Sequence record: OL631479.1
DNA length: 64,000 nucleotides
Source: Escherichia phage ECML-10
Reading direction: 5' to 3' (one strand)
Every line of letters begins with the position of its first letter. Position 1 is the stretch's first letter. This document shows, piece after piece, positions 31,365 to 47,214 of the stretch. The notes beneath the pieces were generated by a model. It made no database searches. It saw nothing but the letters and a program-made list of their open reading frames with translations, and was not told where the DNA came from. A program made the position numbers and the translations under genes.

Positions 31365-31604
31365 ATGTACAAGTCATTTTCAATTTACTCAAGACAGGCG
31401 AAACACTACACAGAGATCCTGATTACTCAGAAAAAATCTGTAGAGGGTGAGTGGGAGTATCACCATAAAATGTTGCGTCCAGCTTGGGTTTTTGATAGAC
31501 TTATTGCTATGATCCCTCTTGGAGAAGTATACCCTCTGACAGGTCATAGGGATGCTTGGGATTTAATTGATTACATAGATTCATTTAAGGAGCCCAGTGT
31601 ATGA
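31365..31604 (+). CDS. hypothetical protein
   Basis: Start moved to ATG 31365 (SD AAGGGGG). Confidence 0.45.
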   Translation: MYKSFSIYSRQAKHYTEILITQKKSVEGEWEYHHKMLRPAWVFDRLIAMIPLGEVYPLTGHRDAWDLIDYIDSFKEPSV

Positions 31605-31999
31605 AGATTGAGATCACTAAAGAAGGTAAGAAAGTGTCTGGAGACTATGCAACAGTAATTCGAGATTTAATGTTTGAAACCACCAAGTTCGGCACATCTA
31701 AAGTTGGTCAAACGGTGAGTGTGCAAGGTAATATCACCTCAGGAGAGAAGATAATCATCGTGATCAAAGGACAAGATCCTGTGGAAGGAACAGTGGGCCG
31801 AGGAGGCTACCTGTGCATTTCTGAAGAACCGCGCATGCTGGTTGCTGATGACTCCACAGGTAAAAAGCGGGTATGTAACACTGACGAGGTGATGATTATC
31901 TATCCAGTCAACCCAGATGATCCTGCAACATGGATTGTGGGGAATGAAATCTTCTCTTTAGAAGAGTTATCCTTCCCAGCTCCGCGCTCTGTTCAGTAA
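31601..31999 (+). CDS. hypothetical protein (starts MKIEIT)
   Basis: ORF track; ATGA overlap. Confidence 0.5.
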   Translation: MKIEITKEGKKVSGDYATVIRDLMFETTKFGTSKVGQTVSVQGNITSGEKIIIVIKGQDPVEGTVGRGGYLCISEEPRMLVADDSTGKKRVCNTDEVMIIYPVNPDDPATWIVGNEIFSLEELSFPAPRSVQ

Positions 32000-32038
32000 T
32001 AATTTATCTTACCAGGGACGGTAGAAGTAGGAGGTAGC

Positions 32039-32272
32039 ATGAAAGTTAAATTTCTTACAGATTTAGGGTACCCTTCCTTGGTTGACTGCGTTGGTAAAAT
32101 TGTGGAAGCAAAACGACTATCTGCAAACGATAATGTTGTCATGGTTAAGGGAAAAGATTTACTATCTGCAGGTGCAGAGTCTGGCAGGATCTCTCCTGAC
32201 TATACGTATTACCTGTCTTTAAGTAATCTACCAGAACGAGGCGGCAAAGGCCTTGAAGTTGTGGAGGAGTGA
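32039..32272 (+). CDS. small acidic protein, MK(V/I)K family member
   Basis: SD GGAGG; MKVKFL start, C-terminal LEVVEE shared with paralogs. Confidence 0.5.
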   Translation: MKVKFLTDLGYPSLVDCVGKIVEAKRLSANDNVVMVKGKDLLSAGAESGRISPDYTYYLSLSNLPERGGKGLEVVEE

Positions 32273-32796
32273 CAGGTATGCTACTGGTTGATTGGAAAGA
32301 TTTTTATGGCGATAAAGACCCGAAAGCATTTATATATAAGCCTTGGAGATACTCAGAGAGTCAAATTGCTGCAATAAACCTTACAGCAAAGCGCCGAAAA
32401 ATTATTGAAAGTAAATATAGATACGCCCAGCTAGTGGCTGGTGTTTCTCCACAGGTAGAGGGTTTTGTACTTAAACTGTACGAAAAGTTTATGAATTACG
32501 ATTTGTCATTCGTGAAGGTGGGCGAGGATTTATCCCCTGGTAACAACGTAACCCGTTGGAAAGTTTCGTGTGACAAAAAACTCCCGATCAGTATTGAGGT
32601 GTGTCGATACTGGGGGTATCATGATTGTGGATTGTATGACTACCATGATGTGGAAATAAAGCCACGCAATCATCTAAGCGACCCAGAAAAAGATTACTTG
32701 AAGCATGTGATTCTTTCCATGTTTGGAGGGTATATCACAGAGAAAAATAGCGAAGACAGAGTATCCTTTCTTAACAGTTTGAACCAGGAGATGTAA
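32269..32796 (+). CDS. hypothetical protein (175 aa)
   Basis: ORF track; SD GGAGGAG. Confidence 0.55.
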   Translation: MTGMLLVDWKDFYGDKDPKAFIYKPWRYSESQIAAINLTAKRRKIIESKYRYAQLVAGVSPQVEGFVLKLYEKFMNYDLSFVKVGEDLSPGNNVTRWKVSCDKKLPISIEVCRYWGYHDCGLYDYHDVEIKPRNHLSDPEKDYLKHVILSMFGGYITEKNSEDRVSFLNSLNQEM

Positions 32797-32797
32797 T

Positions 32798-33034
32798 ATG
32801 GCCATAGATACTGTGTTGGTTTGGTATTGCGCATTGACCTTTCTGACAATGGTTGTTTTAGCAACTCTTTGCATCATATCTTGTAGAAAAATTAAGTTTG
32901 ACGACTTTATAACTATAATCACTGCCGCACCTTTTTGGCCTGTCGTTCTCTTCATTGTTGTTATGTGCTTGGTAGATCACTGTAAAACCGTCAGAAAAAT
33001 GAAGGAGGCAGATAAGAATGGTAACAGTGACTGA
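32798..33034 (+). CDS. small membrane protein (2 predicted TM segments)
   Basis: Hydrophobic stretches VLVWYCALTFLTMVVLATLCIIS and ITAAPFWPVVLFIVVMCLV. Confidence 0.5.
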   Translation: MAIDTVLVWYCALTFLTMVVLATLCIISCRKIKFDDFITIITAAPFWPVVLFIVVMCLVDHCKTVRKMKEADKNGNSD

Positions 33035-33254
33035 AACTGTTTATACTGTTCTTAGGGAGATTGCATTCTATACAGACCTTAGTTCAGTATCTTCATGGGA
33101 AAAGAGTGTGTATTTAAAATGGTGCGTGAAATTAGAGGTGACCTTCTAATGTTTCAAGCCATGTTTATTGAAATGCTCTCCGGAGTATTACTGCTGGTAG
33201 CCATTTTGGGTGGTGCGGCACTAATGTATAATTATCTTGAAAAAGGGGACAGTA

Positions 33255-33440
33255 ATGACAAAAAATAAATCCTTAGAACAGGCTGAAAACCTTCTCCACG
33301 AGCTGGTAAAGGAGTGGAAAGTTGAATACTCAGATTTTAATGCAAGAGAGGGGGAAGATTATTGGCCTACGGAGCGCTCAGAGGGAGAGTGGTATCAAGA
33401 TTTCATAGAATGGTTATATCAGACGTGTGATGAGGGGTGA
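33255..33440 (+). CDS. hypothetical acidic protein
   Basis: Start moved to ATG 33255 (SD AAGGGGA); a 39-aa hydrophobic ORF at 33149-33268 overlaps in another frame. Confidence 0.4.
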   Translation: MTKNKSLEQAENLLHELVKEWKVEYSDFNAREGEDYWPTERSEGEWYQDFIEWLYQTCDEG

Positions 33441-33898
33441 CGATGTTTGTTAAATATGTAAAAACGTGCCTCAACAACCTTGGTAGAGAGCATTGGTACA
33501 CCTTGCTTGAAAAAGGAGAAATTTTAACAAAATCTGGAAAGATAACTTTGATACCCTTGGATGATAAAGACCCGTCACTACTTGTCATAGATGATTACGT
33601 TACAGGTGTGTCGTACGAGGTCTCTGTGGAGAGGTTAATACGCAGATCTGGAGGGCCTTATGACCGAAGAGAGTATGTTTTCGATTCTGTTACAGAGAAG
33701 GAGGATCCGTCTCTAATGTTTAGGATGGTAATCAGGGATATGAAATCATCTATAAATAGGATCGTAAAGGACATTAAAGAGCCTTTTAGGGTAAAAGTTA
33801 AGAAGTTTTTTGATTCTAAGATTAACATACTCGCCGTTGTGCTAGGCGTAATTCAACTTCTGTTAATTTTGCACTATCTTGAACTGTTGTTCAAGTAG
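33437..33898 (+). CDS. hypothetical protein with C-terminal TM helix
   Basis: ORF track; ILAVVLGVIQLLLILHYLELL. Confidence 0.5.
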   Translation: MTMFVKYVKTCLNNLGREHWYTLLEKGEILTKSGKITLIPLDDKDPSLLVIDDYVTGVSYEVSVERLIRRSGGPYDRREYVFDSVTEKEDPSLMFRMVIRDMKSSINRIVKDIKEPFRVKVKKFFDSKINILAVVLGVIQLLLILHYLELLFK

Positions 33899-33958
33899 TG
33901 TGCAACAAGGCACAAAGGATGTGCCATGATTAAATAAACTAAGAAAGAGGTAGAGAGA

Positions 33959-34306
33959 ATGCCAAAGATTAAGTCGGTATTAATGTGGGCAGCTGTTGTA
34001 GCTTTTGTAGGATACTGGACTTGGGAAACTGAATTAAAAGATATCGGATATACCAGTCTTGAGAGCAAGGCATGCATTGGCATAACCGATGCATTCAGGC
34101 AAAATGCTATGGATCACGAATGTGTTGATGCAGATATAGATGAGAAACTGTCTAAGGACAAGGATTTTTACCATGGTCATGCCTTGCTTGATAGTGGTGA
34201 CACTGTGGAATTCTGGTCGTGGTTCCGTGAAGATGGAACAATAAAGACAGCAGTAAAGATTTCCAACAAAGAGTTAATGCTGTTGCAGCAGAAGGAGGTG
34301 CAATGA
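33959..34306 (+). CDS. membrane-anchored protein (N-terminal TM)
   Basis: SD AAGAGG; VLMWAAVVAFVGYWTW. Confidence 0.5.
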   Translation: MPKIKSVLMWAAVVAFVGYWTWETELKDIGYTSLESKACIGITDAFRQNAMDHECVDADIDEKLSKDKDFYHGHALLDSGDTVEFWSWFREDGTIKTAVKISNKELMLLQQKEVQ

Positions 34307-34590
34307 TTTGGATATCCTACACTGATGGCACCATGCTGTATACCGCAGGTACTAGGTATGAAGTTCAGGAGGACGATAAAAAATTTATCGTAAAAACATT
34401 TGACAAGGACGACAACCTTTTGCTAGAATTGACTTACAAGGTTGGAGAGGTATCCGATATCCAATTGGATTGTGGTCATAAAGATAATCCACTCAAAAAA
34501 CCTGGAATAGGCAAGGCTTCAGAAGAACGTTTGTCTCGTATTGCAGAAAGCGTTTCTCCCCAAAAATCTAAGAAGAGGAGTAGAAAATGA
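34303..34590 (+). CDS. hypothetical protein
   Basis: ORF track; ATGA overlap. Confidence 0.45.
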   Translation: MIWISYTDGTMLYTAGTRYEVQEDDKKFIVKTFDKDDNLLLELTYKVGEVSDIQLDCGHKDNPLKKPGIGKASEERLSRIAESVSPQKSKKRSRK

Positions 34591-34787
34591 GTGACAAAAT
34601 TCTTAAATTTAATACCTACTATGAGAATGATTTGAACGATCTGTATTATATAGTGCGTAGCGAAAACCCGAATGTAGTACTGTTTTGCCGAGAACCTTTC
34701 AAAGGAGAGGAGATTGAATCTACCATGAATGTGGATCAGATTTCACACCTGCTGCTCCTTGGATCATTAAAAGAGGCAGTATTCTAA
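34587..34787 (+). CDS. hypothetical protein
   Basis: ORF track; ATGA overlap. Confidence 0.45.
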   Translation: MSDKILKFNTYYENDLNDLYYIVRSENPNVVLFCREPFKGEEIESTMNVDQISHLLLLGSLKEAVF

Positions 34788-34806
34788 ACCAGGATGGAGG
34801 GTTTTT

Positions 34807-34992
34807 ATGAAGCACTATTGTCTGTCTGGCAGAATGGGTGCAGATTGTGATTGGGTTTTCTTAAAACTTGTCAGTATTCGAGAGTTCATTCCAGAGGAAG
34901 AGCAAGAAAGTGAGCTGATGTCATGGATCAACCATTACGGTAACACTTTTCGGCATGTTAAGGTGGAAGAGTTGCCAAGCGAGGCTGATTGA
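34807..34992 (+). CDS. hypothetical protein
   Basis: ORF track; SD GGAGGG. Confidence 0.4.
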   Translation: MKHYCLSGRMGADCDWVFLKLVSIREFIPEEEQESELMSWINHYGNTFRHVKVEELPSEAD

Positions 34993-35087
34993 CTATGATT
35001 GCATCAATATTAACGTTTATGGGTGGCGTGGCATTCGGATTCATTGTTTGCCTGTTTATAGTGATTATGTCTATGCGAGGCTGAATT

Positions 35088-35381
35088 ATGAAACTTTTTG
35101 AGTGGTTTAAAAAGTTTAAATATAAAGCTGTAGCCATCGTGCCGTGGTCCATTCAGTGGGTGGACGATGAGGGATTACCAATTCCAGGTGATAAAGACAC
35201 GGGATACTGGATCATGCTTGAGAACGGGTTCGGTAAACGGAAATATTCCTGCACGGATACCTCAGGAGCATCTTTTAGGAGAATTCCTGGGTATAAATGT
35301 ATGATTGTGTGGAAGATGTCTGGTGTACCTCCGGCCAATGCACAATATCTTACTACCAATCCAACCACAGAAGAGGACTAG
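35088..35381 (+). CDS. hypothetical protein
   Basis: ORF track. Confidence 0.45.
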   Translation: MKLFEWFKKFKYKAVAIVPWSIQWVDDEGLPIPGDKDTGYWIMLENGFGKRKYSCTDTSGASFRRIPGYKCMIVWKMSGVPPANAQYLTTNPTTEED

Positions 35382-35383
35382 TA

Positions 35384-35665
35384 ATGAAAAAGATTTGCGA
35401 TACAGATGTGGAGTTCAAGGTGTGTAGTAAGGAGACCTATTGGGAAGTGAGACAAAAGGTATATTTGTTTGGACTTATCCCATATTGGTCCAAATTCTAC
35501 TGGGGAGCAGATGAATTAGGGAGATATGCCACCAAAGCTATGGCGCTTATAGGTATAGCTGAATATATTGCTGCTAGGGACAGGGCTGGAAAAACCTGCT
35601 ACTACACTGCTGACGAGATTCGTAACAGTGTTTACGTCCCCCAACCACCTGAAGGAGACCGTTGA
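35384..35665 (+). CDS. hypothetical protein
   Basis: Start moved to ATG 35384 (track start overlapped upstream gene). Confidence 0.45.
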   Translation: MKKICDTDVEFKVCSKETYWEVRQKVYLFGLIPYWSKFYWGADELGRYATKAMALIGIAEYIAARDRAGKTCYYTADEIRNSVYVPQPPEGDR

Positions 35666-35889
35666 TGAAAGTTAAAGTTTTAGATTCAAGCTTCTATATT
35701 GGTCAGGAGCCTTTAGTGGGTAAAGTGTTTACCGCTGTCCATAACGAAGATTATCCTGACCTTTTAAAAATAAAGGGTGCAGATCTTATTGCCGCTGGTG
35801 CATCTCAGGAATGCTTTGACAGTCAGTGGACCTACAACTTTGCCCTAGGTGAGGATGTAGAGATAGTGGAGGACGATCATGAAGGTTAA
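35665..35889 (+). CDS. small acidic protein, MK(V/I)K family member
   Basis: MKVKVLDSSFYIGQ start; C-terminal EDVEIVEDDHEG. Confidence 0.5.
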   Translation: MKVKVLDSSFYIGQEPLVGKVFTAVHNEDYPDLLKIKGADLIAAGASQECFDSQWTYNFALGEDVEIVEDDHEG

Positions 35890-36133
35890 AATTCTTGATT
35901 CTAACGTCTACTTGGGGCAATCCTTCCTGAAAGGAAAGGTCGTACCTGCGGTATACTTTGAAGGGTTGCCGTGGGATGATCCTGTGCGGCAACATCACAG
36001 TTATGTAGGCCACAACGTGGTGTTTATCTTGGGATCAGACCTGATCACCGCTGGTGCACCTGAATATTATTTCGGGGAAGAGTCCTATTATGCCTTTGGG
36101 GTAGGGTCAGATGCAGATATTGTAGAGCTGTGA
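35879..36133 (+). CDS. small acidic protein, MK(V/I)K family member
   Basis: MKVKILDSNVYLGQ start, very similar to preceding gene; C-terminal GSDADIVEL. Confidence 0.5.
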   Translation: MKVKILDSNVYLGQSFLKGKVVPAVYFEGLPWDDPVRQHHSYVGHNVVFILGSDLITAGAPEYYFGEESYYAFGVGSDADIVEL

Positions 36134-36145
36134 TGGGTAACCGTT

Positions 36146-36544
36146 GTGAAAAATAAACTGTTCAAAGTTACAATGAAAATTCGCGGAGCTTGGAGCGTAA
36201 AGCAAGGGCGTATCCCAGAATTTGAGAAAGATTTCTACGTAGTCTCCACCTCGGAGGAGGCTGCATGCTGGCAGGCTGGCTATGCCTATGCAAGAACCTG
36301 GTACGAAGGATACCAGACTGGGGGCTATGACGGAGAAATTGTCAGCAAGGGTGTAGAAGAAATTAATGTGTTGACAAGTGAAAAAGTTTTTGTTATAGTG
36401 CATCCAGATTCCAGAGTGAAGCATTACTGGAATGCCAGAACAAAAACTTGGACACCGTTTGCAGACTCTGCTACACCACTTTTAAACCAAAAAGCTCTTG
36501 ACTCTGCCCCGAGCTATGGGGTTGTTGAAGAAAAGCTAAACTGA
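36146..36544 (+). CDS. hypothetical protein, paralog of 38355..38750
   Basis: Shares HP.S...YW....WTP motif block with 38355..38750. Confidence 0.5.
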   Translation: MKNKLFKVTMKIRGAWSVKQGRIPEFEKDFYVVSTSEEAACWQAGYAYARTWYEGYQTGGYDGEIVSKGVEEINVLTSEKVFVIVHPDSRVKHYWNARTKTWTPFADSATPLLNQKALDSAPSYGVVEEKLN

Positions 36545-36561
36545 AACAGTGAGGTGTCACT

Positions 36562-36852
36562 ATGATGGATTTAATTCTAAATATTGATAACGCAGAAGAA
36601 TTTAAAGACGATGGTGTAACAAGCATGGACAAACCCTGCTCTGCTAAGGTTGACTCAAAATGGACCTACAAGTTTGACGGAGAGATCTTTGCAAATGATG
36701 AGAAGGTTGTAGATGCTGCAGCCATTTTAAACGCTCTAGGGTACGACCCTGTGAATTCTTTGATCAAGGATCCTGTTGAGTTTGCAGAGTATGTTCGAAA
36801 AATGGCAGATCTTGCTGCGGATATTTTAAAAACTATAGACAACAAGCTGTAA
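36562..36852 (+). CDS. hypothetical acidic protein
   Basis: ORF track; SD GAGGTG. Confidence 0.5.
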   Translation: MMDLILNIDNAEEFKDDGVTSMDKPCSAKVDSKWTYKFDGEIFANDEKVVDAAAILNALGYDPVNSLIKDPVEFAEYVRKMADLAADILKTIDNKL

Positions 36853-36934
36853 AAACTGTTGACACAACGCTTCAGATTTAGTATCATTGTTTTCAAAGAG
36901 GGTTTGGTTCCCTCTTCTTTAAAAGGAACACGTT

Positions 36935-37252
36935 ATGCAAATTGAAATCACTGGCAACGTAGAAATCACTGAAGGTATGGTGTCTTTCATTTCCCACAAA
37001 ATGTCTAAGCTGGAGCGTTTGCACCCCTCTGCCAACTATACACGTGTGAGTGTAAAAGTTGAAAATGATCACCAGGAAGTCATGGCGTTCATTTTTGACA
37101 CTTCCGGAAAAGAAGTTATTGCCAAAGCTAAAGGCAGTGACGCTTACGAGGCAACTGACCGTATGGTAGATGTTGCAGCACGTCAGTTGGCTAAATGCGG
37201 TGGAAAGAAAGGTAAAGGGAAGGGCAAAGTAAAGATTGACTTTGGAGAATGA
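36935..37252 (+). CDS. hpf: ribosome hibernation promoting factor (HPF/RaiA/YfiA family)
   Basis: MQIEITGNVEITEG, KLERL, VSVKVEN and GKEVIAKAKGSDAYEATDRMVDVAARQLAK align with E. coli HPF/YfiA (from memory). Confidence 0.7.
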   Translation: MQIEITGNVEITEGMVSFISHKMSKLERLHPSANYTRVSVKVENDHQEVMAFIFDTSGKEVIAKAKGSDAYEATDRMVDVAARQLAKCGGKKGKGKGKVKIDFGE

Positions 37253-37389
37253 GGTGCTACAATGGGCGTGATTAAGAAATTAGTACCAAATGTAGAGATT
37301 GCATGCTTTGAAATTATGTTTGCAATCGCAGTTGTAGTTAATGTGTTAGGTTACGGCTATTAATATCAAATAATTGAGGAGACCTCTAA

Positions 37390-37659
37390 ATGAAAATTAA
37401 ATTATTCAAAACTGAGCTGGCAGACAAAAACTGTGGACTGGTTGAAGGCATGATCGTTGAAGCACAACCAGTGGACTACATGAAGGTAGTTCGTGATGCC
37501 TTGGGTGAAGGCTTTGATCTGATGGAGCCAGCTCTGCGAGAAGATGTTATCGAGATGGCTAAAAAGCACACACCTGAAGGCTTGGTGGTGTTTGTTGCAC
37601 CGGGTAACGGAGAAGAGTTGATTGTAACTCCTGATGTGTATGAGATTGTAGAAGAGTAA
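37390..37659 (+). CDS. small acidic protein, MK(V/I)K family member
   Basis: MKIKLFK start; C-terminal VYEIVEE; SD GAGGAGA. Confidence 0.5.
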   Translation: MKIKLFKTELADKNCGLVEGMIVEAQPVDYMKVVRDALGEGFDLMEPALREDVIEMAKKHTPEGLVVFVAPGNGEELIVTPDVYEIVEE

Positions 37660-37754
37660 TCCTGCTTGGATTAGCATACTTCTCTCAATAAAAAGAAAAG
37701 TTTGTAATTATTTGTGGGAAAGGAATCCCCATCTCTTGCCAGAGGTGATACTAT

Positions 37755-38018
37755 ATGATTGTTTATTTTAAAACTTCAGGTGGATACCCTGATTCTCAAA
37801 GCTTGATCGGAAAAACGTGCACAGCATACTCACCTCTTGATGAGGAGGTAAGCGATATTCTACGAGATATGTATCGGATTGATCCCCAAGAAGCTTTTGA
37901 TCAAAACCTTGTATTTGTCAAGGGCTCAGACATGAAGTCTTTGGGAGCATTCCCTGAAGCAGATGATGATGCCGTTTATTCGTTCATGACTCCTTTTGAA
38001 GCTATGGTTGTTGGGTGA
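37755..38018 (+). CDS. small acidic protein
   Basis: ORF track; SD AGAGGTGA. Confidence 0.5.
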   Translation: MIVYFKTSGGYPDSQSLIGKTCTAYSPLDEEVSDILRDMYRIDPQEAFDQNLVFVKGSDMKSLGAFPEADDDAVYSFMTPFEAMVVG

Positions 38019-38022
38019 GAAT

Positions 38023-38355
38023 ATGAAAGTACGATTTATTGGTGAAACAATTCCTGTGCATCTCCGGTCGCCTGAAGATTCTGCAGATCTTGCATCTCAG
38101 AAGGCGAGAGGTTATGATAAGAAAGTAATCTCAAACGATGTAGAACTTGAGGCTACTAGTTTACCTGACCCTGCTGCATTCTTTAATCATTATGGATACT
38201 ATTTCAGCAATCTGATGAATATCGGTGAGCTTGTGTTTATTAGTGGTGGAGAAATTGTTAGCAAGCTTGGCGGCGATCCGGATGTCTTTCATGAAACCTG
38301 TCCTTTTGCATTTGTGGTAGGTTCAGATGTGGAAGTTATTGAGGAGGTGCGGTAA
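38023..38355 (+). CDS. small acidic protein, MK(V/I)K family member
   Basis: Start moved to ATG 38023 (MKVRFIG); C-terminal GSDVEVIEEV. Confidence 0.5.
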   Translation: MKVRFIGETIPVHLRSPEDSADLASQKARGYDKKVISNDVELEATSLPDPAAFFNHYGYYFSNLMNIGELVFISGGEIVSKLGGDPDVFHETCPFAFVVGSDVEVIEEVR

Positions 38356-38750
38356 TGGTAAGACTATACCGTGTTGAGTATAGCTCAGATACTGTATACA
38401 ACGTAAGAAGCAAAGATCGCAGCGACAGAGTGCAAGAAATGTATGTTCTTGCCGACAGTCCGCTATCTGCAGCGTTCAAGGCAGGGGCTCTTGCATCTCG
38501 TTGGAAATTTGAAGGTGGATCTTTCTATGAAGAAACCCTTGAAGATTCTGTTGTTATTTCTTCTGTAGAGGTTTCAGATGACTACGAAGGGAAAAAGTTC
38601 GTAATGCGGCACCCACACAGCAACATTGCGTACTACTGGGATGTTCTGAACAACGAGTGGACCCCAGATCTTCAGAAGGCTACTGTGCTAACACCGTTTT
38701 TGGCAGATAAGTTTCCACCAGAAGGTAATTTATCCGCACTGTTTCAGTAA
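38355..38750 (+). CDS. hypothetical protein, paralog of 36146..36544
   Basis: FVMRHPHSNIAYYWDVLNNEWTP matches VFVIVHPDSRVKHYWNARTKTWTP. Confidence 0.5.
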   Translation: MVRLYRVEYSSDTVYNVRSKDRSDRVQEMYVLADSPLSAAFKAGALASRWKFEGGSFYEETLEDSVVISSVEVSDDYEGKKFVMRHPHSNIAYYWDVLNNEWTPDLQKATVLTPFLADKFPPEGNLSALFQ

Positions 38751-38826
38751 TTTTCTTGCACACAGGTGTTGACAACGCCAACCCTGTGTGAAATAATACC
38801 TTCATCTTAACAAGACAGGAGACCGA

Positions 38827-39087
38827 TTGATGAAGATTAAATTGAAAAACCTTGAAACGGCAGAGATTCAGGACGGTGTAGATTTCCGTTCTAAAGATGG
38901 TGACATCTTAGAGGTAAATCTTCCAACCTACACGCTGATTAAAGGTTTTGGCAACGTTCCGGAAGAGGATATTCCAGAAATTCTTATGATGTTGATTCTT
39001 GACGGAACTGTGTTTGTAGGTGAAGGTGAGAACGCTATTGCAATCCCAAGCCATTTTTATGAAGTAGTCGACGAAGAGGTGCTGTAA
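38827..39087 (+). CDS. small acidic protein, MK(V/I)K family member
   Basis: MMKIKLKN start; C-terminal FYEVVDEEVL. Confidence 0.5.
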   Translation: MMKIKLKNLETAEIQDGVDFRSKDGDILEVNLPTYTLIKGFGNVPEEDIPEILMMLILDGTVFVGEGENAIAIPSHFYEVVDEEVL

Positions 39088-39438
39088 ATGAAAGTAGAAA
39101 TTACCGGTTTTGATGTGAATGCGGTTCCGGAAGATATTTTATCTAAATTGCCGGAAGGTTTTGGTAACGGTGTTGTGGTGGATGCTGTTCCTCCTACCAA
39201 AGACATTCTGCTGCAGTATGGTGTAGCAGAGGAAGATGTTGATAAAGTTCTTACAATGATGGCAATCGATCGTGTTGTCGTTGTTAAAGGTCTCGATAAT
39301 TTTGAGAGTGATCCTCTGATTATTCGTGGAGATGACTACAAAATCATCGATAATGAAGGCCAAGAGTTCTATGAGCCTTGTGCAGAAGATATTCTTAACT
39401 TATTACTGGAAGCAGGCACCGAAGAGGAGGACGAATAA
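39088..39438 (+). CDS. small acidic protein, MK(V/I)K family member
   Basis: MKVEITGFD start; acidic tail. Confidence 0.5.
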   Translation: MKVEITGFDVNAVPEDILSKLPEGFGNGVVVDAVPPTKDILLQYGVAEEDVDKVLTMMAIDRVVVVKGLDNFESDPLIIRGDDYKIIDNEGQEFYEPCAEDILNLLLEAGTEEEDE

Positions 39439-39767
39439 TGAAGATTGACCCGTTACTGAAGGCTCGTGCAGAAAAAGCGTACACCATTAAGCTGACCAAC
39501 CTGGTTCCTACTTGTCATCCAGATGTAGGTTGGCCCGAAGGTTTGGTGGAGGGAACTGTAACAGCTGCATACCTTCCTAACATCAAATACCTCATGGAGA
39601 TCTTAGAGATGGATGAGGAAACTGCAGAACAGTTCCAGTTGGATATGAAACAGAGTGGGACTCTGGTTATTCACGGGTGGTATAATACTAAAGATGCAGA
39701 AGACCCTCTGGTAACTTCTAATCTGGCATATGAAATCTTAGGGCCTTTGAACCTGGAGGAAGACTAA
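39438..39767 (+). CDS. small acidic protein
   Basis: ORF track; ATGA overlap; MKIDPLL start. Confidence 0.5.
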   Translation: MKIDPLLKARAEKAYTIKLTNLVPTCHPDVGWPEGLVEGTVTAAYLPNIKYLMEILEMDEETAEQFQLDMKQSGTLVIHGWYNTKDAEDPLVTSNLAYEILGPLNLEED

Positions 39768-40054
39768 TGAAAGATCTGGTTAAGATTAAGATTAAAGATA
39801 CCAATGGGGAGCTCAGCCATTTTGGAATTAATGATGGTGACGAGCTGATCGCACACCTGCCTACCAAGGAGGTTGTAAGCAAAGCAGTTGCCGGAGAAGA
39901 AGCTGCAATGCAGGCTGCAGGTGTGGATGAAAACTATGTAGCTATGTGCATGTGCCGAGATCAGGTTGTTCTGTATAAAGCGTATCGACCAAACGGAGCC
40001 ACGGAGTGGCTTGTATTCCGACCCGAAGGATATGAAATCTTAGAGGCACTATGA
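39767..40054 (+). CDS. small acidic protein
   Basis: ORF track; MKDLVKIKIK start. Confidence 0.5.
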   Translation: MKDLVKIKIKDTNGELSHFGINDGDELIAHLPTKEVVSKAVAGEEAAMQAAGVDENYVAMCMCRDQVVLYKAYRPNGATEWLVFRPEGYEILEAL

Positions 40055-40143
40055 TAAATCTTGCCAAGGTTGCAACGGCACTGTTAATTATTTGCTGGTC
40101 AGTAACCTTAACACTGTGTCTTGTATTTCAGTGAGGTGCTTGT

Positions 40144-40407
40144 ATGAACATCCTGATGTGGGTTATAGCAGTGGCGTTTGTTGCATGTTTTTGCTGCTGG
40201 GTTGCGGTGAGGATTTCTGTAGCTACCCTTCGGAAGTTGGGGTTCTCAGAATGGGATATTAATATCCTTTCTTTTCGCAATGAGACAATATCAGCCGCCC
40301 TGCTTTGTAAGAAATTCAAGTGGGAACCTTGTGAGGTCATGAACTATCTAAGAACGGGAGATATCCCTGAAAGATTTAAAAAAGTTCTTGACGGTAAGGA
40401 TAAATGA
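40144..40407 (+). CDS. small membrane protein
   Basis: MNILMWVIAVAFVACFCCWVAV hydrophobic N-terminus. Confidence 0.45.
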   Translation: MNILMWVIAVAFVACFCCWVAVRISVATLRKLGFSEWDINILSFRNETISAALLCKKFKWEPCEVMNYLRTGDIPERFKKVLDGKDK

Positions 40408-40435
40408 TAGTATAGTGACTAACAAGAGGTGAGGA

Positions 40436-40576
40436 ATGACAGATTTTACTGAAGCTTTAATGATGGCCTTGTCTGTTTTAGCGCTATCGGTGTGTTTTGG
40501 GGCGTTATTCACATCTCTGGTTAAAGTTTTACATACAGTATTATTACCCAAGGAGCGCAGTAATGACGAAGATTGA
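40436..40576 (+). CDS. 46-aa hydrophobic micro-protein
   Basis: SD AAGAGGTGAGGA before ATG 40436; ALMMALSVLALSVCFGALF TM-like; below track cutoff. Confidence 0.35.
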   Translation: MTDFTEALMMALSVLALSVCFGALFTSLVKVLHTVLLPKERSNDED

Positions 40577-40814
40577 CTTGAATGCTGGCGACCATGTTGT
40601 TGTCAAATGCATCGGAGATTATCTTGGATTCACAATCGGCAATACTTACGAGGCGGTAGTGGCGAAGGTTTATCATGATAAAGTCCTCAGTCTTGTATTT
40701 GACTGCGATGATGATGGGGATGACCGATACGTCTGTGAGGTGCTGGCACGAGACGATAGTGAAGACCAGAAATTCCTGGTTATTGAACTGAACGGTATTT
40801 TTGTAGAACGTTAA
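40563..40814 (+). CDS. hypothetical protein
   Basis: Start moved to ATG 40563 (SD AAGGAG). Confidence 0.45.
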   Translation: MTKIDLNAGDHVVVKCIGDYLGFTIGNTYEAVVAKVYHDKVLSLVFDCDDDGDDRYVCEVLARDDSEDQKFLVIELNGIFVER

Positions 40815-40842
40815 TTTAAAACAACATAAGGAGACTCTTACT

Positions 40843-41148
40843 ATGGCTAAATCTAAAGTTGAACTGTTCACCTCTCTTCCTTCTGACACTGCAGAGCGTG
40901 ATCGCCTTCGCAAAACAATCGAAGAACTGGTGGAACTCCAACTTCAGATTAAAGATCTGAAAGATGCCATCAAGGATATCATTCTTGTTGAGAAGCAGGA
41001 TCATCTGTATTCTCCTAAATTCATCAAATCTCTGGTGGCTACCGAGTTCGATATTCGATATGAGGCTGAAAAACGTCGAGCTAAAATCGAAGAAGAGGTT
41101 GAGCACATGTCCGAGGCAGACATTCTGTTCAAACGCTCTGTAGAATAA
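40843..41148 (+). CDS. hypothetical protein, predicted coiled coil
   Basis: SD AAGGAGA; charged heptad-like sequence. Confidence 0.5.
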   Translation: MAKSKVELFTSLPSDTAERDRLRKTIEELVELQLQIKDLKDAIKDIILVEKQDHLYSPKFIKSLVATEFDIRYEAEKRRAKIEEEVEHMSEADILFKRSVE

Positions 41149-41156
41149 TGACAAAG

Positions 41157-41181
41157 AGAGGGGCTTGGGCCCCTCTTTTTA
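41157..41181 (+). terminator. rho-independent terminator
   Basis: AGAGGGGC-TTGG-GCCCCTCT followed by TTTTT. Confidence 0.65.
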
Positions 41182-41203
41182 CTATCTATGAAGGAGATTT
41201 GAG

Positions 41204-41530
41204 ATGGGTATACCGATCACTGTAAAAGAATTGAATGAACGTGATGCAGGTGGTCTATGGCCTGCACGAAAAATACGCTGCGTCTACATGAAAGAGAACC
41301 TTGAACATCTTGATCAACAGATCAAGGTCGGTGATATTTTCGAGGTCTTCTATTCCAATCGTCGCAACTGGGAAACCATTCAGCCTTCTGGTTTTGTTCT
41401 TGCCAAACTTGACACTGGAGAAGTGATTATCCCAGGGTTGGATATTGTCTTCGAAATTATCCAGGAGTGGGATCCGGATAAGATTAGATATGAAGAGTTA
41501 TTCGGTGAAGGTATTATCAAACCTGTGTGA
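41204..41530 (+). CDS. hypothetical protein (108 aa)
   Basis: ORF track; SD AAGGAGA. Confidence 0.5.
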   Translation: MGIPITVKELNERDAGGLWPARKIRCVYMKENLEHLDQQIKVGDIFEVFYSNRRNWETIQPSGFVLAKLDTGEVIIPGLDIVFEIIQEWDPDKIRYEELFGEGIIKPV

Positions 41531-41538
41531 GGTGGATT

Positions 41539-41838
41539 ATGTCTACAAAGACGGCTAAATACTCCTACATGCCATCAACCTCTGCAGAGGTAGATTTTAG
41601 TTTCGATGTGTTTCCACTGTTTGAGGTGGTTCTGGCATACCCAACAATACTATCTACTCCGGAATCACTTGTGCCTGTTAAGTTGCAGAACGCCATGCAT
41701 TCTATGCACTACAACAATAAATGCAGGCACAGATGGTGTCAGGACGAGGAAAAAGATCTGGATAGTTTGAGAGATTTTGACAGTCACCTTTTGACACCTT
41801 TCAGCTACTCCAACCTTGATAAGCCATCATGGGTATAG
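41539..41838 (+). CDS. hypothetical protein
   Basis: Start moved to ATG 41539 (SD GAGGTGG). Confidence 0.45.
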   Translation: MSTKTAKYSYMPSTSAEVDFSFDVFPLFEVVLAYPTILSTPESLVPVKLQNAMHSMHYNNKCRHRWCQDEEKDLDSLRDFDSHLLTPFSYSNLDKPSWV

Positions 41839-41862
41839 CAAAATATCAAATTTAAGACACCT

Positions 41863-41890
41863 AGGACGCTCTGTGGCGTCCTTTTCTTTA
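41863..41890 (+). terminator. rho-independent terminator
   Basis: GGACGC-TCTGTG-GCGTCC followed by TTTTCTTT. Confidence 0.6.
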
Positions 41891-42051
41891 TCTGGTGCAC
41901 GATTGCATACCTTGGACAGATAATCTCCTTACAGAGCGTTTAAGAGCTTCCTACAAACAACTCTCTTTTTCGAGCGTAGCGAGAACGCACGTCCGTTTTG
42001 ACCCAAATCCCCATACGCTCGGATTTTAACCAAACCCTCGCGGCGTTTCTA

Positions 42052-42080
42052 TTGACACATTACCGCTCCAGTGATAGTAT
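42052..42080 (+). promoter_or_regulatory. sigma70-type promoter (TTGACA-17-TAGTAT)
   Basis: -35 at 42052-42057, -10 at 42075-42080. Confidence 0.45.
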
Positions 42081-42198
42081 CCACACATAGTTTGTAGAAT
42101 ATGGAATACACAATGAGAACATTGTCCGAAGTTTTAGTAGTGATCCTGATGATCATTACGTCCATAGCGGCTGTTGCCGGAATACTCACGGGTGGAAC

Positions 42199-42411
42199 AT
42201 GATCAACACGCATGCACCTGAAGAGACATCCGAAGGAGTGACCATATGTCCATTGTCTGAGCCAGTGAAAGAGGAAAACTTCGATTCTGAAGATTCTCCA
42301 TCTTCGCTCCAGGTAGATCCTGAGGCTGATGACCTAACGTGGGAAGACATCGTAGACATCTGGTTCTCCATTATGCCTGAGCACGAAGAGTTCAGAGGTG
42401 GTAGACTATGA
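42199..42411 (+). CDS. hypothetical acidic protein (70 aa)
   Basis: ORF track; weak SD. Confidence 0.4.
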   Translation: MINTHAPEETSEGVTICPLSEPVKEENFDSEDSPSSLQVDPEADDLTWEDIVDIWFSIMPEHEEFRGGRL

Positions 42412-42532
42412 AGCACCGAGCCCACACAGGTTCCTCATGCTAAAGCATGGCCTGAAGAGGCAAACGTGTATAATTCCAGTGCATTGGAACGTATAAAACC
42501 CTGTTCACACTCTCATTTCCAGAGGAGATTTC

Positions 42533-42748
42533 ATGAAGATAGAAATATTTGGTGGAGCTGACAACACTCGTGGCCTGATTTACCTTGAATTCGATGAAAC
42601 ATACCTGCCAGAGGTGTTAAATATAGACTCTGTTGCTGAGGCTTTGGGAGTAAACCCTAAAGAACTCCACTCTTGTGCTGAGATCGATGGTTGGGAAGAG
42701 ACCATGAACATTGATTTCAGTGAAGTAGAGGATGAACCGCTGGACTGA
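42533..42748 (+). CDS. small acidic protein, MK(V/I)K family member
   Basis: MKIEIFGG start; SD GGAGA. Confidence 0.5.
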   Translation: MKIEIFGGADNTRGLIYLEFDETYLPEVLNIDSVAEALGVNPKELHSCAEIDGWEETMNIDFSEVEDEPLD

Positions 42749-44329
42749 CACACAATTAGCTGCCCGGCTAAAGTGCTGGAAGCACCTATAACACATCTTT
42801 CAACTAAATTTCCCACCACCACAATCACTTACCTCCCACACATGACTGTTTGCTTGTTTAGTGAGCAGTCATGCCTTGACATTCTTGCCTATCCTGATAA
42901 AATTAAGTTCTTCTCTTTTCTTTTACCGAGTAATTCGGGTTTTCTGTTCTCTTCGGTTTGAAGGGGTATGGAGATACACCTGAGTGAACAGGGTGAACAA
43001 CCGAACATTTGGCTATGGCATTAGCATGGCGAAGCGGACGGGTGACGAAAGAGGGGCCGGAGGACACCAGTCACTGCCATATGATATATGGGTGATAACC
43101 TGAAGAGTCTGAATAAGTGTTTAAGTACCAGTCAGAGGAAAAGGTGAATGGTAGCCGAAGGGGGAGGGGGTTTCTTGTATCTTTAATTTGTATATTATGT
43201 ATACATTCGTAAACCAATCTCATCTGAATCTGTTTACCACACAAAGTGGATAGAGACAAATATTACCTATTAAACTTGAATTATTTATAGAAAATACTAC
43301 AACACTACTTAAGTATTTGATTTTACACACAAATCCTGCAGATATTCACCCCCCATATTTAACATACTTGTAACATATTCCATACTCTACCTGACCGATC
43401 AACTCACCCAACTACATCCTCCATATTTCCCCTGTCTGTACTACCCCTGCCCAGCCGGGAGTCCCGTCATATCTGGCTTTCCAGCAAATATCACACCCAC
43501 AAATATCATTGCCTGAAGAGGGTTTCATCCCATAATACATGCCTTACCTGAAGAGCGCTTCATATACCCCGTAAATTTTTTAATTGACACCCTCCCCGCC
43601 GCCGGAGGGGGTTGGCTTTTCCCACACAGACCCGAAGAGCCAGCCAGAAATATCTGAACAGGTCCAGCTATGCCACGATTTTGACCTGACCTACAGGAGT
43701 GCTTCCCTGTCAGGAGCCGGTAGCGACTGGAGTGCTGCCAGGCGGACGAAATGGGAATACTTCTCATTCTTATAATAATTCTCAAATATCGAGGCAGTGA
43801 GGCAAATTAATAGGTGAGGCCGTTCACACAGTGGCACAACATTTGCAACCTATCTTGTGTGGGGGAATGAGAATACCTATCATTGTGAGAATAGTTATCA
43901 TTACGGGCAATTTAACATAATACCCATTATGCGCACCACTGGCGATCCATACAGGGATTGATAACATGAGTTACTGTTTATGCATATAACAATTATATTT
44001 CTTACTATTTGTGTGGGATATAGTTAGCAGCCAATAGATTAGATATTGACCTGTAGACTTCTGACCGTCCAGACGTCTAAACGCCCACACAACAAGGCTT
44101 ATACATACATCGCTGAATGTAAACAGGGCCGCAAAAATGCTACCATACCAGATTGTAAATTTTTCATACAGCACTTGACAAAGAGGAGAAAAACTTGTCT
44201 GACACTTTAGACACAATAGTGACATAATGGTGACACACTGGGCATACTCAACACACTGGATACAATAACAGTTGTTACTATTGCATGCTTCACTGTTCAC
44301 GTATAGATTGTTTACACAGAGATGATAAG

Positions 44330-44620
44330 CCATGCCATTCGTTTGCATGACAATAATTAACTTGTTTACAATCTTTCACTGGCTATGCCAGGTGACCTTT
44401 GGTCACCCCTTCGGGTGTTTCTATGACATAATATAAAAGCAGGGCAACTATTAGAAGATCTATAGTTGCCTTGCTTGTTATGTCACGATTAACTAAATAC
44501 AAGGCAACTATGATCTGATTAATAGTTTGCAGACAAACTATCACGGGGGTGATGGTTACTGCTTTTATATTATGTCGCGACTCCGTCGCGCCATGCCATT
44601 CGTTTGCATAGTTGCCTTAT
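44330..44620. repeat. complex of direct and inverted repeats (GGCAACTAT iterons, 18-bp inverted pair, CCATTCGTTTGCAT direct pair)
   Basis: GGCAACTAT/ATAGTTGCC four times; GACATAATATAAAAGCAG at 44424-44441 with reverse complement at 44561-44578; CCATTCGTTTGCAT at about 44334 and 44596. Confidence 0.55.
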
Positions 44621-45234
44621 TGTTACGAATAAAACAATTGCATTGTTAATGATTTCTTATCTTTCTCTTAGTCATCTAATGATTCCAGTCAGTATAGTAA
44701 TGTACAGTAAACATTAGACGACTAAAGATTTCTCTGTTTATTATAACTCACCGTTATAATTTCGAGCTGTTTACGAAAAATGTTGACATCCTAGCCGATT
44801 TATGTTATGCAGTTTACACGAATAATTATTTTATGCAGGTATTGACTATTCCGTTATTCTATGGTTGGAATAAATACTTAGCAGGCTATAGACTGGTGAG
44901 CGTACGTAAATTCTGAGATCTGGCGGCTATAGTTATACTCGATTTTTCACGTAGAACACGCTTTTGTGGTTATGTAAGTGCATGAATTATAAGAATTTTT
45001 ATTTGTTGACAAGATATTGAAGATATGCATCAGGTTAAAATTTATGCAATAGCGGCATTACGTGCAATTTTGGAAGGAAAAGCGTGTAAAAATGGCCCTG
45101 CTACCACACAATGAAAGGTTATGCAATAGCTATTTTACATGTATATTTGTACAGTGTGTGGGATTGATGGCTCGTCAATTATTCCACTTGCCAGGTAGGG
45201 CCGTTTGTGGTAGGAAAAGAGAAGACAAAAAGAA

Positions 45235-45251
45235 AGGGGCTTTAAGCCCCT
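45235..45251 (-). terminator. rho-independent terminator for minus-strand block
   Basis: AGGGGC-TTTAA-GCCCCT; minus-strand reading is followed by TTTCTTTTT. Confidence 0.55.
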
Positions 45252-45270
45252 GACCGTTCATCTTGTTGTA

Positions 45271-45534
45271 TTATTTGTTGCTCATCCAGTTTTCCCAAGC
45301 TGCCTGATAATCTGCCTCACTACGGCGGATCTCTTCTTGTTCTTCAAGTCGGATCTCTTCTTCCAGGTACCCCAAGATGTCAGCCTTTTTGGTCTGGCGT
45401 AGCATCCAGTCATCTTTTTTGCGGGTAAAGATCTTATAAGCTTTCTCGCAAACCTCTTTTTTGCTACCTTTCTGGACTTCCAGAACACGATAAGCCATAT
45501 ATTGAACTAGTTTGAGCTGGTCAAGACGTTTCAT
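45271..45534 (-). CDS. hypothetical protein (87 aa)
   Basis: SD AAAGAGGAAAAA before ATG 45534. Confidence 0.55.
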   Translation of the reverse strand: MKRLDQLKLVQYMAYRVLEVQKGSKKEVCEKAYKIFTRKKDDWMLRQTKKADILGYLEEEIRLEEQEEIRRSEADYQAAWENWMSNK

Positions 45535-45596
45535 GATGTTTTTCCTCTTTATGTGGTTTTTGTTCAGTGGGCCTTTTGGCCCGTGTCATTATCTTA

Positions 45597-47208: not shown

Positions 47209-47214
47209 ACTATT

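What the first reader, a model, noticed from the sequence alone, without database searches (positions are those of the whole stretch)
31601..42748. Tandem array of about a dozen small acidic paralogous proteins (MK[VI][KE][IVFL] start, C-terminal [YF]E[IV]VEE-like tail)
At least twelve consecutive plus-strand ORFs of 70-130 aa share a conserved N-terminal beta-strand-like start (MKVKFL, MKVKVL, MKVKIL, MKIKLF, MKVRFI, MKIKLK, MKVEIT, MKIEIT, MKIEIF, MQIEIT) and many end in an acidic tail (LEVVEE, VEIVEDD, DADIVEL, VYEIVEE, VEVIEEV, YEVVDEEVL). They are translationally coupled, with ATGA or short overlaps. One member (36935-37252) is recognisably an HPF/RaiA ribosome hibernation factor, so the whole family may be diverged copies of a ribosome-binding or other host-takeover fold. 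A diversified multi-copy family of this size in a phage early region is unusual and I do not recognise it as a described system.
Basis: partly seen in the sequence, partly recalled or inferred. Interest (0 to 1): 0.8.

Follow-up and report, generated by a model that had tools for sequence, protein, structure and literature searches.

The report
Small SH3-like barrel paralogs in rV5-like phage
In the accessory small-gene region of an rV5-like E. coli phage, ten of about 38 genes fall into two old paralog groups of tiny SH3-like beta-barrel proteins of unknown function, unrelated to the neighbouring ribosome hibernation factor; this is a modest finding with a close precedent in phage T4.

Summary
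The window is a Vequintavirus (rV5-like) genome, 98.3% identical to Escherichia phage JES2013. The N-terminal motif M[KQ][VI][KER][IVLF] occurs in only 10 of 577 ORFs in the window, and all 10 lie at 31.6-42.7 kb. However, the genes are not consecutive and they are not one family.

Profile tests separate:
- Family A, 5 genes; three match phrog_5009.
- Family B, 5 genes.
- Family C, a two-gene group.

All A, B and C genes are under purifying selection (dN/dS 0.00-0.21). Each has a 1:1 ortholog in a divergent relative, except C1 (g36146). A natural BASEL isolate lacks two A genes and one C gene, so those are dispensable.

Family A belongs to a wider uncharacterised family of roughly 70-aa phage proteins.

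The function is unknown. My best guess is that these are small binding modules, like T4 GoF/MotB.1/Frd.2. This is a new member of a known kind, of modest interest.

The parts
32039..32272 (+). Family A member (77 aa, MKVKFL...LEVVEE), predicted SH3-like barrel, phrog_5009
   Evidence: phrog_5009 E 8.5e-36. Leave-one-out HMM E 7e-8. 44% identical to a single-copy homolog in lambdoid prophages.
35665..35889 (+). Family A member (74 aa). This is the sequence that was modelled.
35879..36133 (+). Family A member (84 aa) with a 10-aa insertion after strand 2; overlaps g35665 by 11 nt
   Evidence: Hybrid g35665/g35879 genes exist in other genomes (P0011, P0017).
37755..38018 (+).
   Evidence: HMM from three A members gives E 1.7e-7. 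Leave-one-out E 2.8e-5. Weak phrog_5009 match, E 1.2e-4.
38023..38355 (+). Family A member (110 aa, MKVRFI...VEVIEEVR) with a long insertion after strand 2
   Evidence: HMM E 2.5e-6. Leave-one-out E 2.2e-6. Alignment.
37390..37659 (+). Family B member (89 aa, MKIKLF...YEIVEE)
   Evidence: Profile of three B members gives E 2.5e-5. Leave-one-out E 0.0017, top non-included hit.
38830..39087 (+). Family B member (85 aa). This is the sequence that was modelled. First gene after the promoter at 38769.
39088..39438 (+). Family B member (116 aa, net charge -21) with an extra acidic C-terminal extension
   Evidence: Leave-one-out E 2.3e-8.
39438..39767 (+). Family B member (109 aa) with an N-terminal extension before the IKLTNL strand. 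This is the weakest member.
   Evidence: Iterative profiles converge on it from several seeds. Leave-one-out E 0.032, but still the top non-included hit.
39767..40054 (+). Family B member (95 aa, MKDLVKIKIKD...YEILEAL)
   Evidence: Leave-one-out E 4.3e-5. Its ortholog is split into two ORFs in rV5.
36146..36544 (+). Family C member (132 aa), directly after an A-A pair; phrog_7379
   Evidence: BLASTP E 1.7e-8 to g38355. phrog_7379 E 8e-74.
38355..38750 (+). Family C member (131 aa), directly after the second A-A pair
36935..37252 (+). Short HPF (ribosome hibernation promoting factor) homolog. Not related to families A, B or C.
   Evidence: PF02482 E 1.4e-12. E. coli HPF 2rql E 7e-12 over 1-89. 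No similarity to A or B.
36859..36887 (+). Sigma-70-type promoter (TTGACA, 17 nt, TATCAT) upstream of HPF, g37390, g37755, g38023 and g38355
   Evidence: 11/12 match. Same site annotated as P144 in rV5.
38769..38797 (+). Sigma-70-type promoter (TTGACA, 17 nt, AATAAT, with TG) upstream of the four-gene B cluster
   Evidence: 11/12 match. Same site annotated as P150 in rV5.
41157..41176 (.). GC-rich hairpin after g40843, the likely end of the transcription unit
   Evidence: Terminator-like hairpin; the scan called it on the minus strand. A Rho-independent terminator is annotated on the + strand at the equivalent place in rV5.
31601..31999 (+). g31601 (132 aa, MKIEIT...).
   Evidence: No profile hit. 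Own family phrog_5748.
42533..42748 (+). g42533 (71 aa, MKIEIF...).
   Evidence: E 0.002 with one leave-one-out B profile, covering only the N-terminal 53 profile positions. No hit with the full B profile.

Best explanation
The span is the accessory small-gene region of a Vequintavirus (rV5-like myovirus). Ten of its roughly 38 genes belong to two old paralog groups, A and B, with five genes each.

Each protein is predicted to be a stand-alone five-stranded SH3-like beta-barrel. The MK[VI]K[ILF] N-terminus is strand 1 and the [YFV]E[IV][VIL][ED] C-terminus is strand 5. In the SH3 topology these two strands pair, which would explain why the two motifs travel together. That step is inferred from the topology and was not read off the models.

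Family B, and the long family A members, carry their extra residues in the same loop, between strands 2 and 3. Whether A and B share ancestry is about even odds.

A third two-gene family, C, follows each A-A pair, so an old A-A-C block duplication is possible.

The genes sit behind sigma-70-type promoters together with an unrelated HPF gene.

Shown: paralogy, predicted fold, purifying selection, 1:1 retention of each A/B paralog in a divergent relative, and dispensability of two A genes and one C gene.

Inferred, at roughly 30% confidence: each barrel acts as a small binding module that engages a different host or phage macromolecule (protein or RNA) to tune the infected cell. [quoted passage not shown]
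For: Identity of the window: 98.3% identical to Escherichia phage JES2013. The block is full-length in 116 of 120 Vequintavirus records at 92.7-98.4% identity.

Paralogy:
- BLASTP E 1e-15, 2e-7 and 2e-8 for the strongest pairs.
- Iterative HMMs converge on the same groups from several seeds.
- Leave-one-out HMMs recover every left-out member as the top non-included hit.

Fold:
- AF2 pLDDT 91.9 (A) and 90.1 (B).
- BFVD returns small uncharacterised proteins of many large phages at TM 0.7-0.83.

A-B link:
- hhalign aligns strands 1-2 with P 0.012, 0.0014 and 0.0027 using progressively deeper profiles.
- 0 of 150 column permutations reach the real score (18.0 against a mean of 8.3, sd 1.5).

Selection and retention:
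- dN/dS against FV3 is 0.02-0.21 for all A, B and C genes with any differences. Against V5 it is 0.00-0.18, apart from the frameshifted g39767 ortholog.
- A relative at 35-90% amino-acid identity keeps all 5 A genes, all 5 B genes, C2 and HPF in the same order.

Wider family A:
- An exhaustive HMM search finds about 40 clusters of small (mostly 63-87 aa) proteins with the same signature. Some carry two or three domains in one polypeptide.
- All 22 tested members match phrog_5009.
- There is a single-copy homolog between the Q antiterminator and the holin in lambdoid prophages.

Promoters.

Precedent: T4 GoF/MotB.1/Frd.2 (PMC12152347).
Against: - No experimental or annotation-based clue to function. 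Pfam, NCBIfam and PDB sequence searches are empty, and all PHROG matches are 'unknown function'.
- A-B homology is below the usual thresholds, with hhalign probability 1-18%. Part of the signal comes from Met1-Lys2.
- Only one member of each family was modelled.
- Early timing is inferred from promoter consensus only.
- Phage Bas59 lacks g35665, g35879 and g36146 and still plates on K-12, so at least those are not needed in the laboratory.
- In lambdoid phages the family A homolog sits in the late, Q-dependent region, so 'early takeover' is not a general property of the family.
Confidence: 0.6

Rival explanations
1. One reading: a single family of about a dozen members made of diverged copies of the HPF/RaiA ribosome-binding fold.
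For: g36935 is a real HPF and lies inside the array. It shares the M-x-[IV]-[KE]-[IV] start with the other genes.
Against: - HPF shows no similarity to any A, B or C gene in BLASTP or HMM tests; the best E is 0.14-0.5.
- A and B members have no PF02482 hit at E up to 0.1.
- The HPF start is shared with cellular HPF.
Confidence: 0.02
2. A and B are unrelated families that converged on a common small barrel. On this view the shared N- and C-terminal look reflects only generic amphipathic beta-strands, plus Shine-Dalgarno sequences embedded in the last codons.
For: - hhalign probability is only 1-18%.
- PHROGs keeps the five B genes in five separate families, none linked to phrog_5009.
- Six of the 10 tails carry the next gene's SD, and unrelated neighbours also end in acidic residues.
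- SH3-like barrels are very common among small phage proteins.
Against: - Both families have the same strand order and the same insertion site, between strands 2 and 3.
- The two families are interleaved in one 4.4-kb block.
- The hhalign score exceeds all 150 column permutations.
- g37390 ends in YEIVEE with no gene within 95 nt downstream, and remote family A homologues keep the E[IV][IV]EE ending in other contexts. The tail is therefore not only an SD effect.
Confidence: 0.4
3. The acidic small proteins are DNA mimics or anti-restriction (anti-defence) proteins of the Ocr/ArdA/Arn kind.
For: - Family B is strongly acidic, with net charge -6 to -21 over 85-116 aa. Family A ranges from -1 to -10.
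- The genes lie in accessory regions, and the lambdoid homolog sits in the moron region between Q and the lysis genes.
Against: [quoted passage not shown]
- The predicted fold is a compact barrel, not an elongated DNA-shaped mimic.
- Strong within-genus conservation and low dN/dS give no sign of an arms race.
Confidence: 0.1
4. The ORFs are spurious or decaying, and the motif is a compositional artefact.
For: The ORFs are short and nearly all are annotated 'hypothetical'. One ortholog is frameshifted in rV5.
Against: - dN/dS is 0.00-0.21 with intact reading frames in V5 and FV3.
- SD sequences precede nearly every start.
- Orthologs are retained at 35-83% identity in a divergent relative.
- The AF2 models are confident.
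Confidence: 0.01

Closest known systems
T4 GoF / MotB.1 / Frd.2 'LSm-like fold' early proteins (Kim et al. 2025, PMC12152347)
   Same: - Several sequence-dissimilar small proteins of one large lytic coliphage share a predicted five-stranded SH3-topology barrel.
- They lie in dispensable regions and are not essential in the laboratory.
- Their function is unknown, with an RNA or protein binding role suspected.
   Different: - The T4 proteins carry the barrel as an N-terminal domain followed by other C-terminal domains. Here most members are the bare barrel of 74-116 aa.
- There are ten copies here rather than three.
- No sequence comparison with the T4 proteins was made here.
phrog_5009 (with phrog_13367), an uncharacterised phage protein family
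   Same: g32039, g35665 and g35879 match at E 3e-32 to 6e-39. All 22 remote homologues tested also match it. The family signature is MKVK.L..GY.G...VGKV..A...I.G.DLI.AGA....F.....Y.F....E[IV][IV]EE.
   Different: - PHROGs places g37755 (phrog_13920) and g38023 (phrog_13661) in other families, although leave-one-out profiles link them to A.
- The five-copy expansion is specific to Vequintavirus.
- No function is attached to the PHROG.
SH3 / KOW / PsaE small beta-barrels (for example Spt5 KOW 4zn3, PsaE 8z11_e, PhnA C-terminal domain 2akl)
HPF/RaiA/YfiA ribosome hibernation factors (Pfam PF02482)
   Same: g36935 is a member, and it lies in the same transcription unit as A and B genes.
   Different: Families A, B and C have neither the sequence signature nor the predicted fold.

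Membership tests
HPF/RaiA (PF02482, Ribosomal_S30AE) | Match to the Pfam profile above the gathering score | tested here: not met
   For the A and B genes there is no hit at E up to 0.1. Only g36935 meets it, at 48.6 bits against a cut-off of 23.7.
HPF/RaiA (PF02482, Ribosomal_S30AE) | Beta-alpha-beta-beta-beta-alpha fold (from established knowledge of HPF structures) | tested here: not met
phrog_5009 (uncharacterised phage family) | Full-length match to the PHROG profile | tested here: met
   g32039 E 8.5e-36, g35665 E 6.1e-39, g35879 E 3e-32. g37755 is weak at 1.2e-4. g38023 has no match at E 0.01 or better, but leave-one-out HMMs link it to A at E 2e-6.
SH3-like small beta-barrel fold | Five antiparallel strands in SH3 order, with structural neighbours that are SH3-type barrels | tested here: met
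One A+B superfamily (common ancestry) | Significant profile-profile similarity | tested here: inconclusive
   hhalign probability 1.3%, 3.6%, 17.7% and 11.1%, with P 0.039 to 0.0014. The score is above 150 of 150 column permutations.
T4 GoF/MotB.1/Frd.2 LSm-like family | Sequence-profile link to the T4 N-terminal domains | not tested
The resemblance is at the level of the description in PMC12152347.
DNA-mimic anti-restriction proteins (Ocr/ArdA type) | Protection of the phage from restriction-modification systems | tested here: not met
   Not tested directly. The BASEL study reports that Vequintavirinae are exceptionally RM-sensitive (PMC8594841). The predicted fold is also not an elongated mimic.

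The most novel reading that the evidence does not exclude
The ten SH3/KOW-like barrels and the co-transcribed HPF would form one coordinated module for taking over host gene expression. Each barrel would act as a decoy for a KOW- or Sm-type interaction surface on the ribosome, on the partners of NusG, S10 or Rho, or on Hfq targets. HPF would silence host ribosomes. On this reading the paralog expansion reflects one ancestral binder diversifying onto many targets.
Probability: 0.06. Interest if true: 0.7.

Novelty: new member of a known kind. Interest (0 to 1): 0.3.

Why it matters
rV5-like phages are common E. coli phages used in biocontrol and typing, and most of their genes are annotated as hypothetical. 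This analysis shows that a quarter of one 11-kb hypothetical block collapses into two or three old paralog groups with a confident SH3-like fold prediction. It also shows that family A is a widespread roughly 70-aa phage domain, found as single genes, as tandem genes and as tandem domains within one protein. That gives a concrete handle for functional work.

The work also corrects a tempting but wrong link to the ribosome hibernation factor.

By itself it does not open a new mechanism. Sequence-divergent small-barrel families in phage dispensable regions already have a precedent in T4.

Tried and rejected
- **g41204 as a sixth A member.** It entered at E 0.0024 in an iterative search over 40 genes. 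It fell to E 0.16-0.9 with deeper or leave-one-out profiles and vanished with the widest profile. Rejected.
- **g42533 as a sixth B member.** It reached E 0.002 with only one leave-one-out profile, covered only the N-terminal 53 positions, and had no hit with the full profile. Left unresolved.
- **Iteration threshold.** Iterative search at E below 0.01 once pulled in the DNA methyltransferase g30516. That threshold is too lax, so I relied on leave-one-out ranks instead.
- **Giant proteins in the exhaustive search** (P0098, P0110, P0126, P0135). The one with Pfam matches, P0110, is an immunoglobulin I-set repeat protein. P0135 had no Pfam match, and P0098 and P0126 were not scanned. I treat all of these as probable repeat-inflated false positives.
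- **Recent duplication at DNA level.** There are no long direct repeats. Only the 31-nt G.DLI.AGA motif is shared between g35665 and g35879.
- **Searches that returned nothing useful.** Pfam, NCBIfam, PDB sequence and Rfam searches.
- **afdb50 fold library.** It was not available.
- **Family C homolog search.** Only Vequintavirus-like contigs, with no annotation.
- **Literature.** The rV5 genome paper does not mention these paralogs. I found no Vequintavirus transcriptome study.


Full report
**Identity of the window.** The 11-kb span is 98.3% identical to Escherichia phage JES2013 and 92-97% identical to more than 100 other Vequintavirus (rV5-like) genomes. In the RefSeq annotations of JES2013 and rV5 it holds about 38 plus-strand genes. 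Nearly all are 'hypothetical'. The exceptions are a RaiA/HPF homolog, a virion structural protein and a 'transcriptional regulator'. Upstream lie PhoH, a ClpP-like protease and a DNA methyltransferase. I re-derived the gene set directly from the window, because small indels shift the coordinates relative to JES2013.

**Checking the observation.** The start motif M[KQ][VI][KER][IVLF] occurs in 10 of 577 ORFs (35 aa or longer) in the whole 64-kb window, and all ten are inside 31601-42748. The ten genes are not consecutive, however. They are scattered among about 28 other genes. Translational coupling is real for many of them, with gaps from -11 to +5 nt. The four genes at 38830-40054 are spaced 0, -1 and -1 nt apart.

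**Paralogy.** All-against-all BLASTP of 39 genes gave three significant links:
- g35665 to g35879, E 1e-15.
- g32039 to g35665, E 1.5e-7.
- g36146 to g38355, E 1.7e-8.

A tail of weaker links followed. Iterated HMMs then defined the groups:
- Family A: g32039, g35665, g35879, g37755, g38023.
- Family B: g37390, g38830, g39088, g39438, g39767. Several different seeds converged on this set.
- Family C: g36146, g38355.

An iteration at E below 0.01 once captured an obvious false positive, the methyltransferase g30516. I therefore ran leave-one-out tests with ortholog-enriched alignments against all 577 window ORFs. In every case the left-out paralog was the best hit outside the training set. E values were 2e-20 to 3e-5 for A and 2e-8 to 0.03 for B, against 0.14 or worse for unrelated ORFs. 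The single exception was g42533, at E 0.002.

That g42533 match covers only the first 53 profile positions and is absent with the full B profile, so I leave it unresolved. g31601 and the HPF g36935 show no relation to anything else in the region.

**The HPF gene.** g36935 matches Pfam PF02482 at 48.6 bits (cut-off 23.7). It aligns over residues 1-89 with E. coli HPF (2rql, E 7e-12), whose own start is MQLNITG. The 'MQIEITG' start is therefore an HPF family trait and not evidence of kinship with the neighbours.

**Fold.** I built deeper alignments from database homologues and ran AlphaFold2 on one member of each family.
- Family A (g35665) gave pLDDT 91.9, with strands at 2-5, 21-23, 33-37, 56-61 and 65-69 and a short helix at 38-43.
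- Family B (g38830) gave pLDDT 90.1, with strands at 2-5, 26-28, 61-63, 70-72 and 77-79 and two helices at 34-38 and 45-57.

In both families the conserved N-terminus is strand 1 and the conserved [YFV]E[IV][VIL][ED] C-terminus is strand 5. In SH3 topology these two strands pair, which would explain why the two motifs co-occur. This last point is an inference from the fold, not something read off the models. The helical insertion of family B lies between strands 2 and 3. That is the same loop where the longer A members (g35879, g37755, g38023) carry their insertions.

**Are A and B one family?** hhalign aligns only the strand 1-2 hairpin.

| Profiles compared | Probability | P |
|---|---|---|
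| Five-sequence alignments | 1.3% | 0.039 |
| Deeper profiles | 3.6% | 0.012 |
| Widest family A profile | 17.7% | 0.0014 |
| Both widened | 11.1% | 0.0027 |

The real score of 18.0 exceeded all 150 column-permuted controls (mean 8.3, sd 1.5, maximum 12.3) and the reversed control (11.4). The invariant Met-Lys start contributes to that excess. I rate common ancestry at about even odds.

**The acidic tails.** In six of the ten A/B genes the last codons contain the next gene's Shine-Dalgarno sequence (GGAGG read as Glu codons). Unrelated genes of the same operons also end in acidic residues. The tail is not only an SD by-product, though. g37390 ends in YEIVEE with no gene within 95 nt downstream. 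Remote family A homologues from other genomes also keep the E[IV][IV]EE ending.

**Wider distribution.**
- k-mer-seeded searches found A, B and C almost only on contigs of about 135 kb that resemble Vequintavirus. HPF also appears confined to the genus in the phage collection.
- The exhaustive HMM search with family A found 46 clusters at E of 0.001 or better. Most are full-length matches to small proteins (mostly 63-87 aa) with a striking common signature: MKVK.L..GY.G...VGKV..A...I.G.DLI.AGA....F.....Y.F....E[IV][IV]EE.
- Some homologues hold two or three copies in one polypeptide (P0107, P0108). In others the domain is N-terminal to further sequence (P0128, P0130, P0119, P0120).
- All 22 tested members match phrog_5009, which has no known function, and none matches Pfam.
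- A few giant proteins also hit. The one with Pfam matches (P0110) is an immunoglobulin I-set repeat protein, so I treat these as probable repeat-inflated artefacts.
- One single-copy homolog sits between the Q antiterminator and the holin in lambdoid prophages and in phage MagusPhagus. Another lies in the replication module of a 42.5-kb phage contig.
- Foldseek against BFVD matched small uncharacterised proteins of many large phages, including CS01, Merlin, Sf20, RB49, ZCKP1 and phiPMW, at TM 0.7-0.83.

**Evolution.**
- There are no DNA-level repeats apart from a 31-nt stretch encoding G.DLI.AGA in g35665 and g35879, so the duplications are old.
- Hybrid genes that join the g35665 N-terminus to the g35879 C-terminus at exactly that motif exist in other genomes (P0011, P0017).
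- dN/dS is 0.02-0.21 against FV3 for all A, B and C genes with any differences. Against V5 it is 0.00-0.18, apart from the frameshifted g39767 ortholog.
- A divergent metagenomic relative at 35-90% protein identity keeps all five A genes, all five B genes, C2 and HPF in the same order. B orthologs (35-56% identity) diverge faster than several neighbours.
- Each A-A pair is followed by a C gene (35665-35879-36146 and 37755-38023-38355). This hints at an ancient block duplication, but I could not test it.
- BASEL phage Bas59 has window 32322-36458 replaced by 338 nt. That removes g35665, g35879 and most of g36146, so those genes are dispensable on K-12.

**Expression.** Near-consensus sigma-70 promoters lie at 36859-36887, before HPF, and at 38769-38797, before the B cluster. 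They match the promoters P144 and P150 annotated in rV5. A hairpin at 41157-41176 corresponds to rV5's annotated terminator. Early expression is therefore plausible but not demonstrated. I found no transcriptome study.

**Mechanism.** No tool gave a functional lead. I commit to the reading that these are stand-alone binding modules, with different paralogs engaging different host or phage macromolecules, at about 30% confidence. The reasons are:
- SH3, KOW and LSm barrels are interaction domains (established knowledge).
- Long-term 1:1 retention of each paralog implies distinct roles.
- The closest precedent is the T4 GoF/MotB.1/Frd.2 set. These are non-essential early proteins with SH3-topology barrels, and one mutant alters mRNA stability (PMC12152347).

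An Ocr-like anti-restriction role is unlikely, because Vequintavirinae are reported as exceptionally RM-sensitive (PMC8594841).

**Verdict.** The HPF-fold interpretation is rejected. The set is a new member of a known kind: sequence-divergent small-barrel paralog families in the dispensable regions of large lytic phages. Interest is modest.

Noticed in passing
window 61772-63227, minus strand: Another cluster of small beta-rich ORFs that look similar. 62350-62096 (84 aa, MKITLK...) and 62092-61772 (106 aa) are paralogs at 30% identity, E 2.5e-6. Their neighbours 63227-63000 (ends FVAVEEDL) and 63003-62809 (MKVKYL...) may be further small barrels.
   Followed up: partly
window 32322-36458 versus L010 (MZ501061, Bas59 EduardKellenberger): A natural 4.1-kb replacement by 338 nt removes many of the small genes, including two family A genes and one family C gene. 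It also creates an ORF annotated as 'putative glycosidase' across the junction.
   Followed up: partly
window 35775-35805 and 36031-36061; P0011, P0017: This 31-nt repeat encodes G.DLI.AGA and is the only DNA-level repeat between paralogs. It coincides with the crossover point of the hybrid g35665/g35879 genes found in other genomes, which indicates copy-number change by homologous recombination.
   Followed up: partly
window 39767-40054 versus L002 (rV5 NC_011041 gp148/gp149): The rV5 reference has a 2-nt length difference that splits this family B gene into two annotated ORFs. This is either a pseudogene or a sequencing error.
   Followed up: no
GenBank records MG0656xx ('Campylobacter phage ...'): Eighteen records labelled as Campylobacter jejuni phages are 95-97.5% identical to this E. 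coli Vequintavirus over the whole region. They are probably mislabelled or contaminant assemblies.
   Followed up: no
window 36562-36852 (g36562) versus 35816-35842: g36562 (96 aa) shares a 27-nt stretch (octapeptide DS.WTY.F) with the C-terminal half of family A member g35665. It may be a remnant of a family A fragment fused to other sequence.
   Followed up: no
L011 9004-9324 and 11389-11685 (metagenome contig DRR842919_19104): In the divergent relative, C1 is replaced by an unrelated 106-aa gene, and a PF27050 (Phage_P22_Y8K6) gene is inserted between C2 and the B cluster. Gene turnover therefore happens at the family boundaries.
   Followed up: no
window 40563-40814 and 41204-41530: g40563 (83 aa) and g41204 (108 aa) look like further beta-rich small proteins (for example GDHVVVK...TYEAVV and IKVGDIFEVFY).
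   Followed up: partly
window 43000-56800: This stretch of about 13 kb has no ORF of 150 aa or more. GC skew changes sign near 42-43 kb, where the coding strand switches. It is probably another block of small genes on the minus strand.
   Followed up: no
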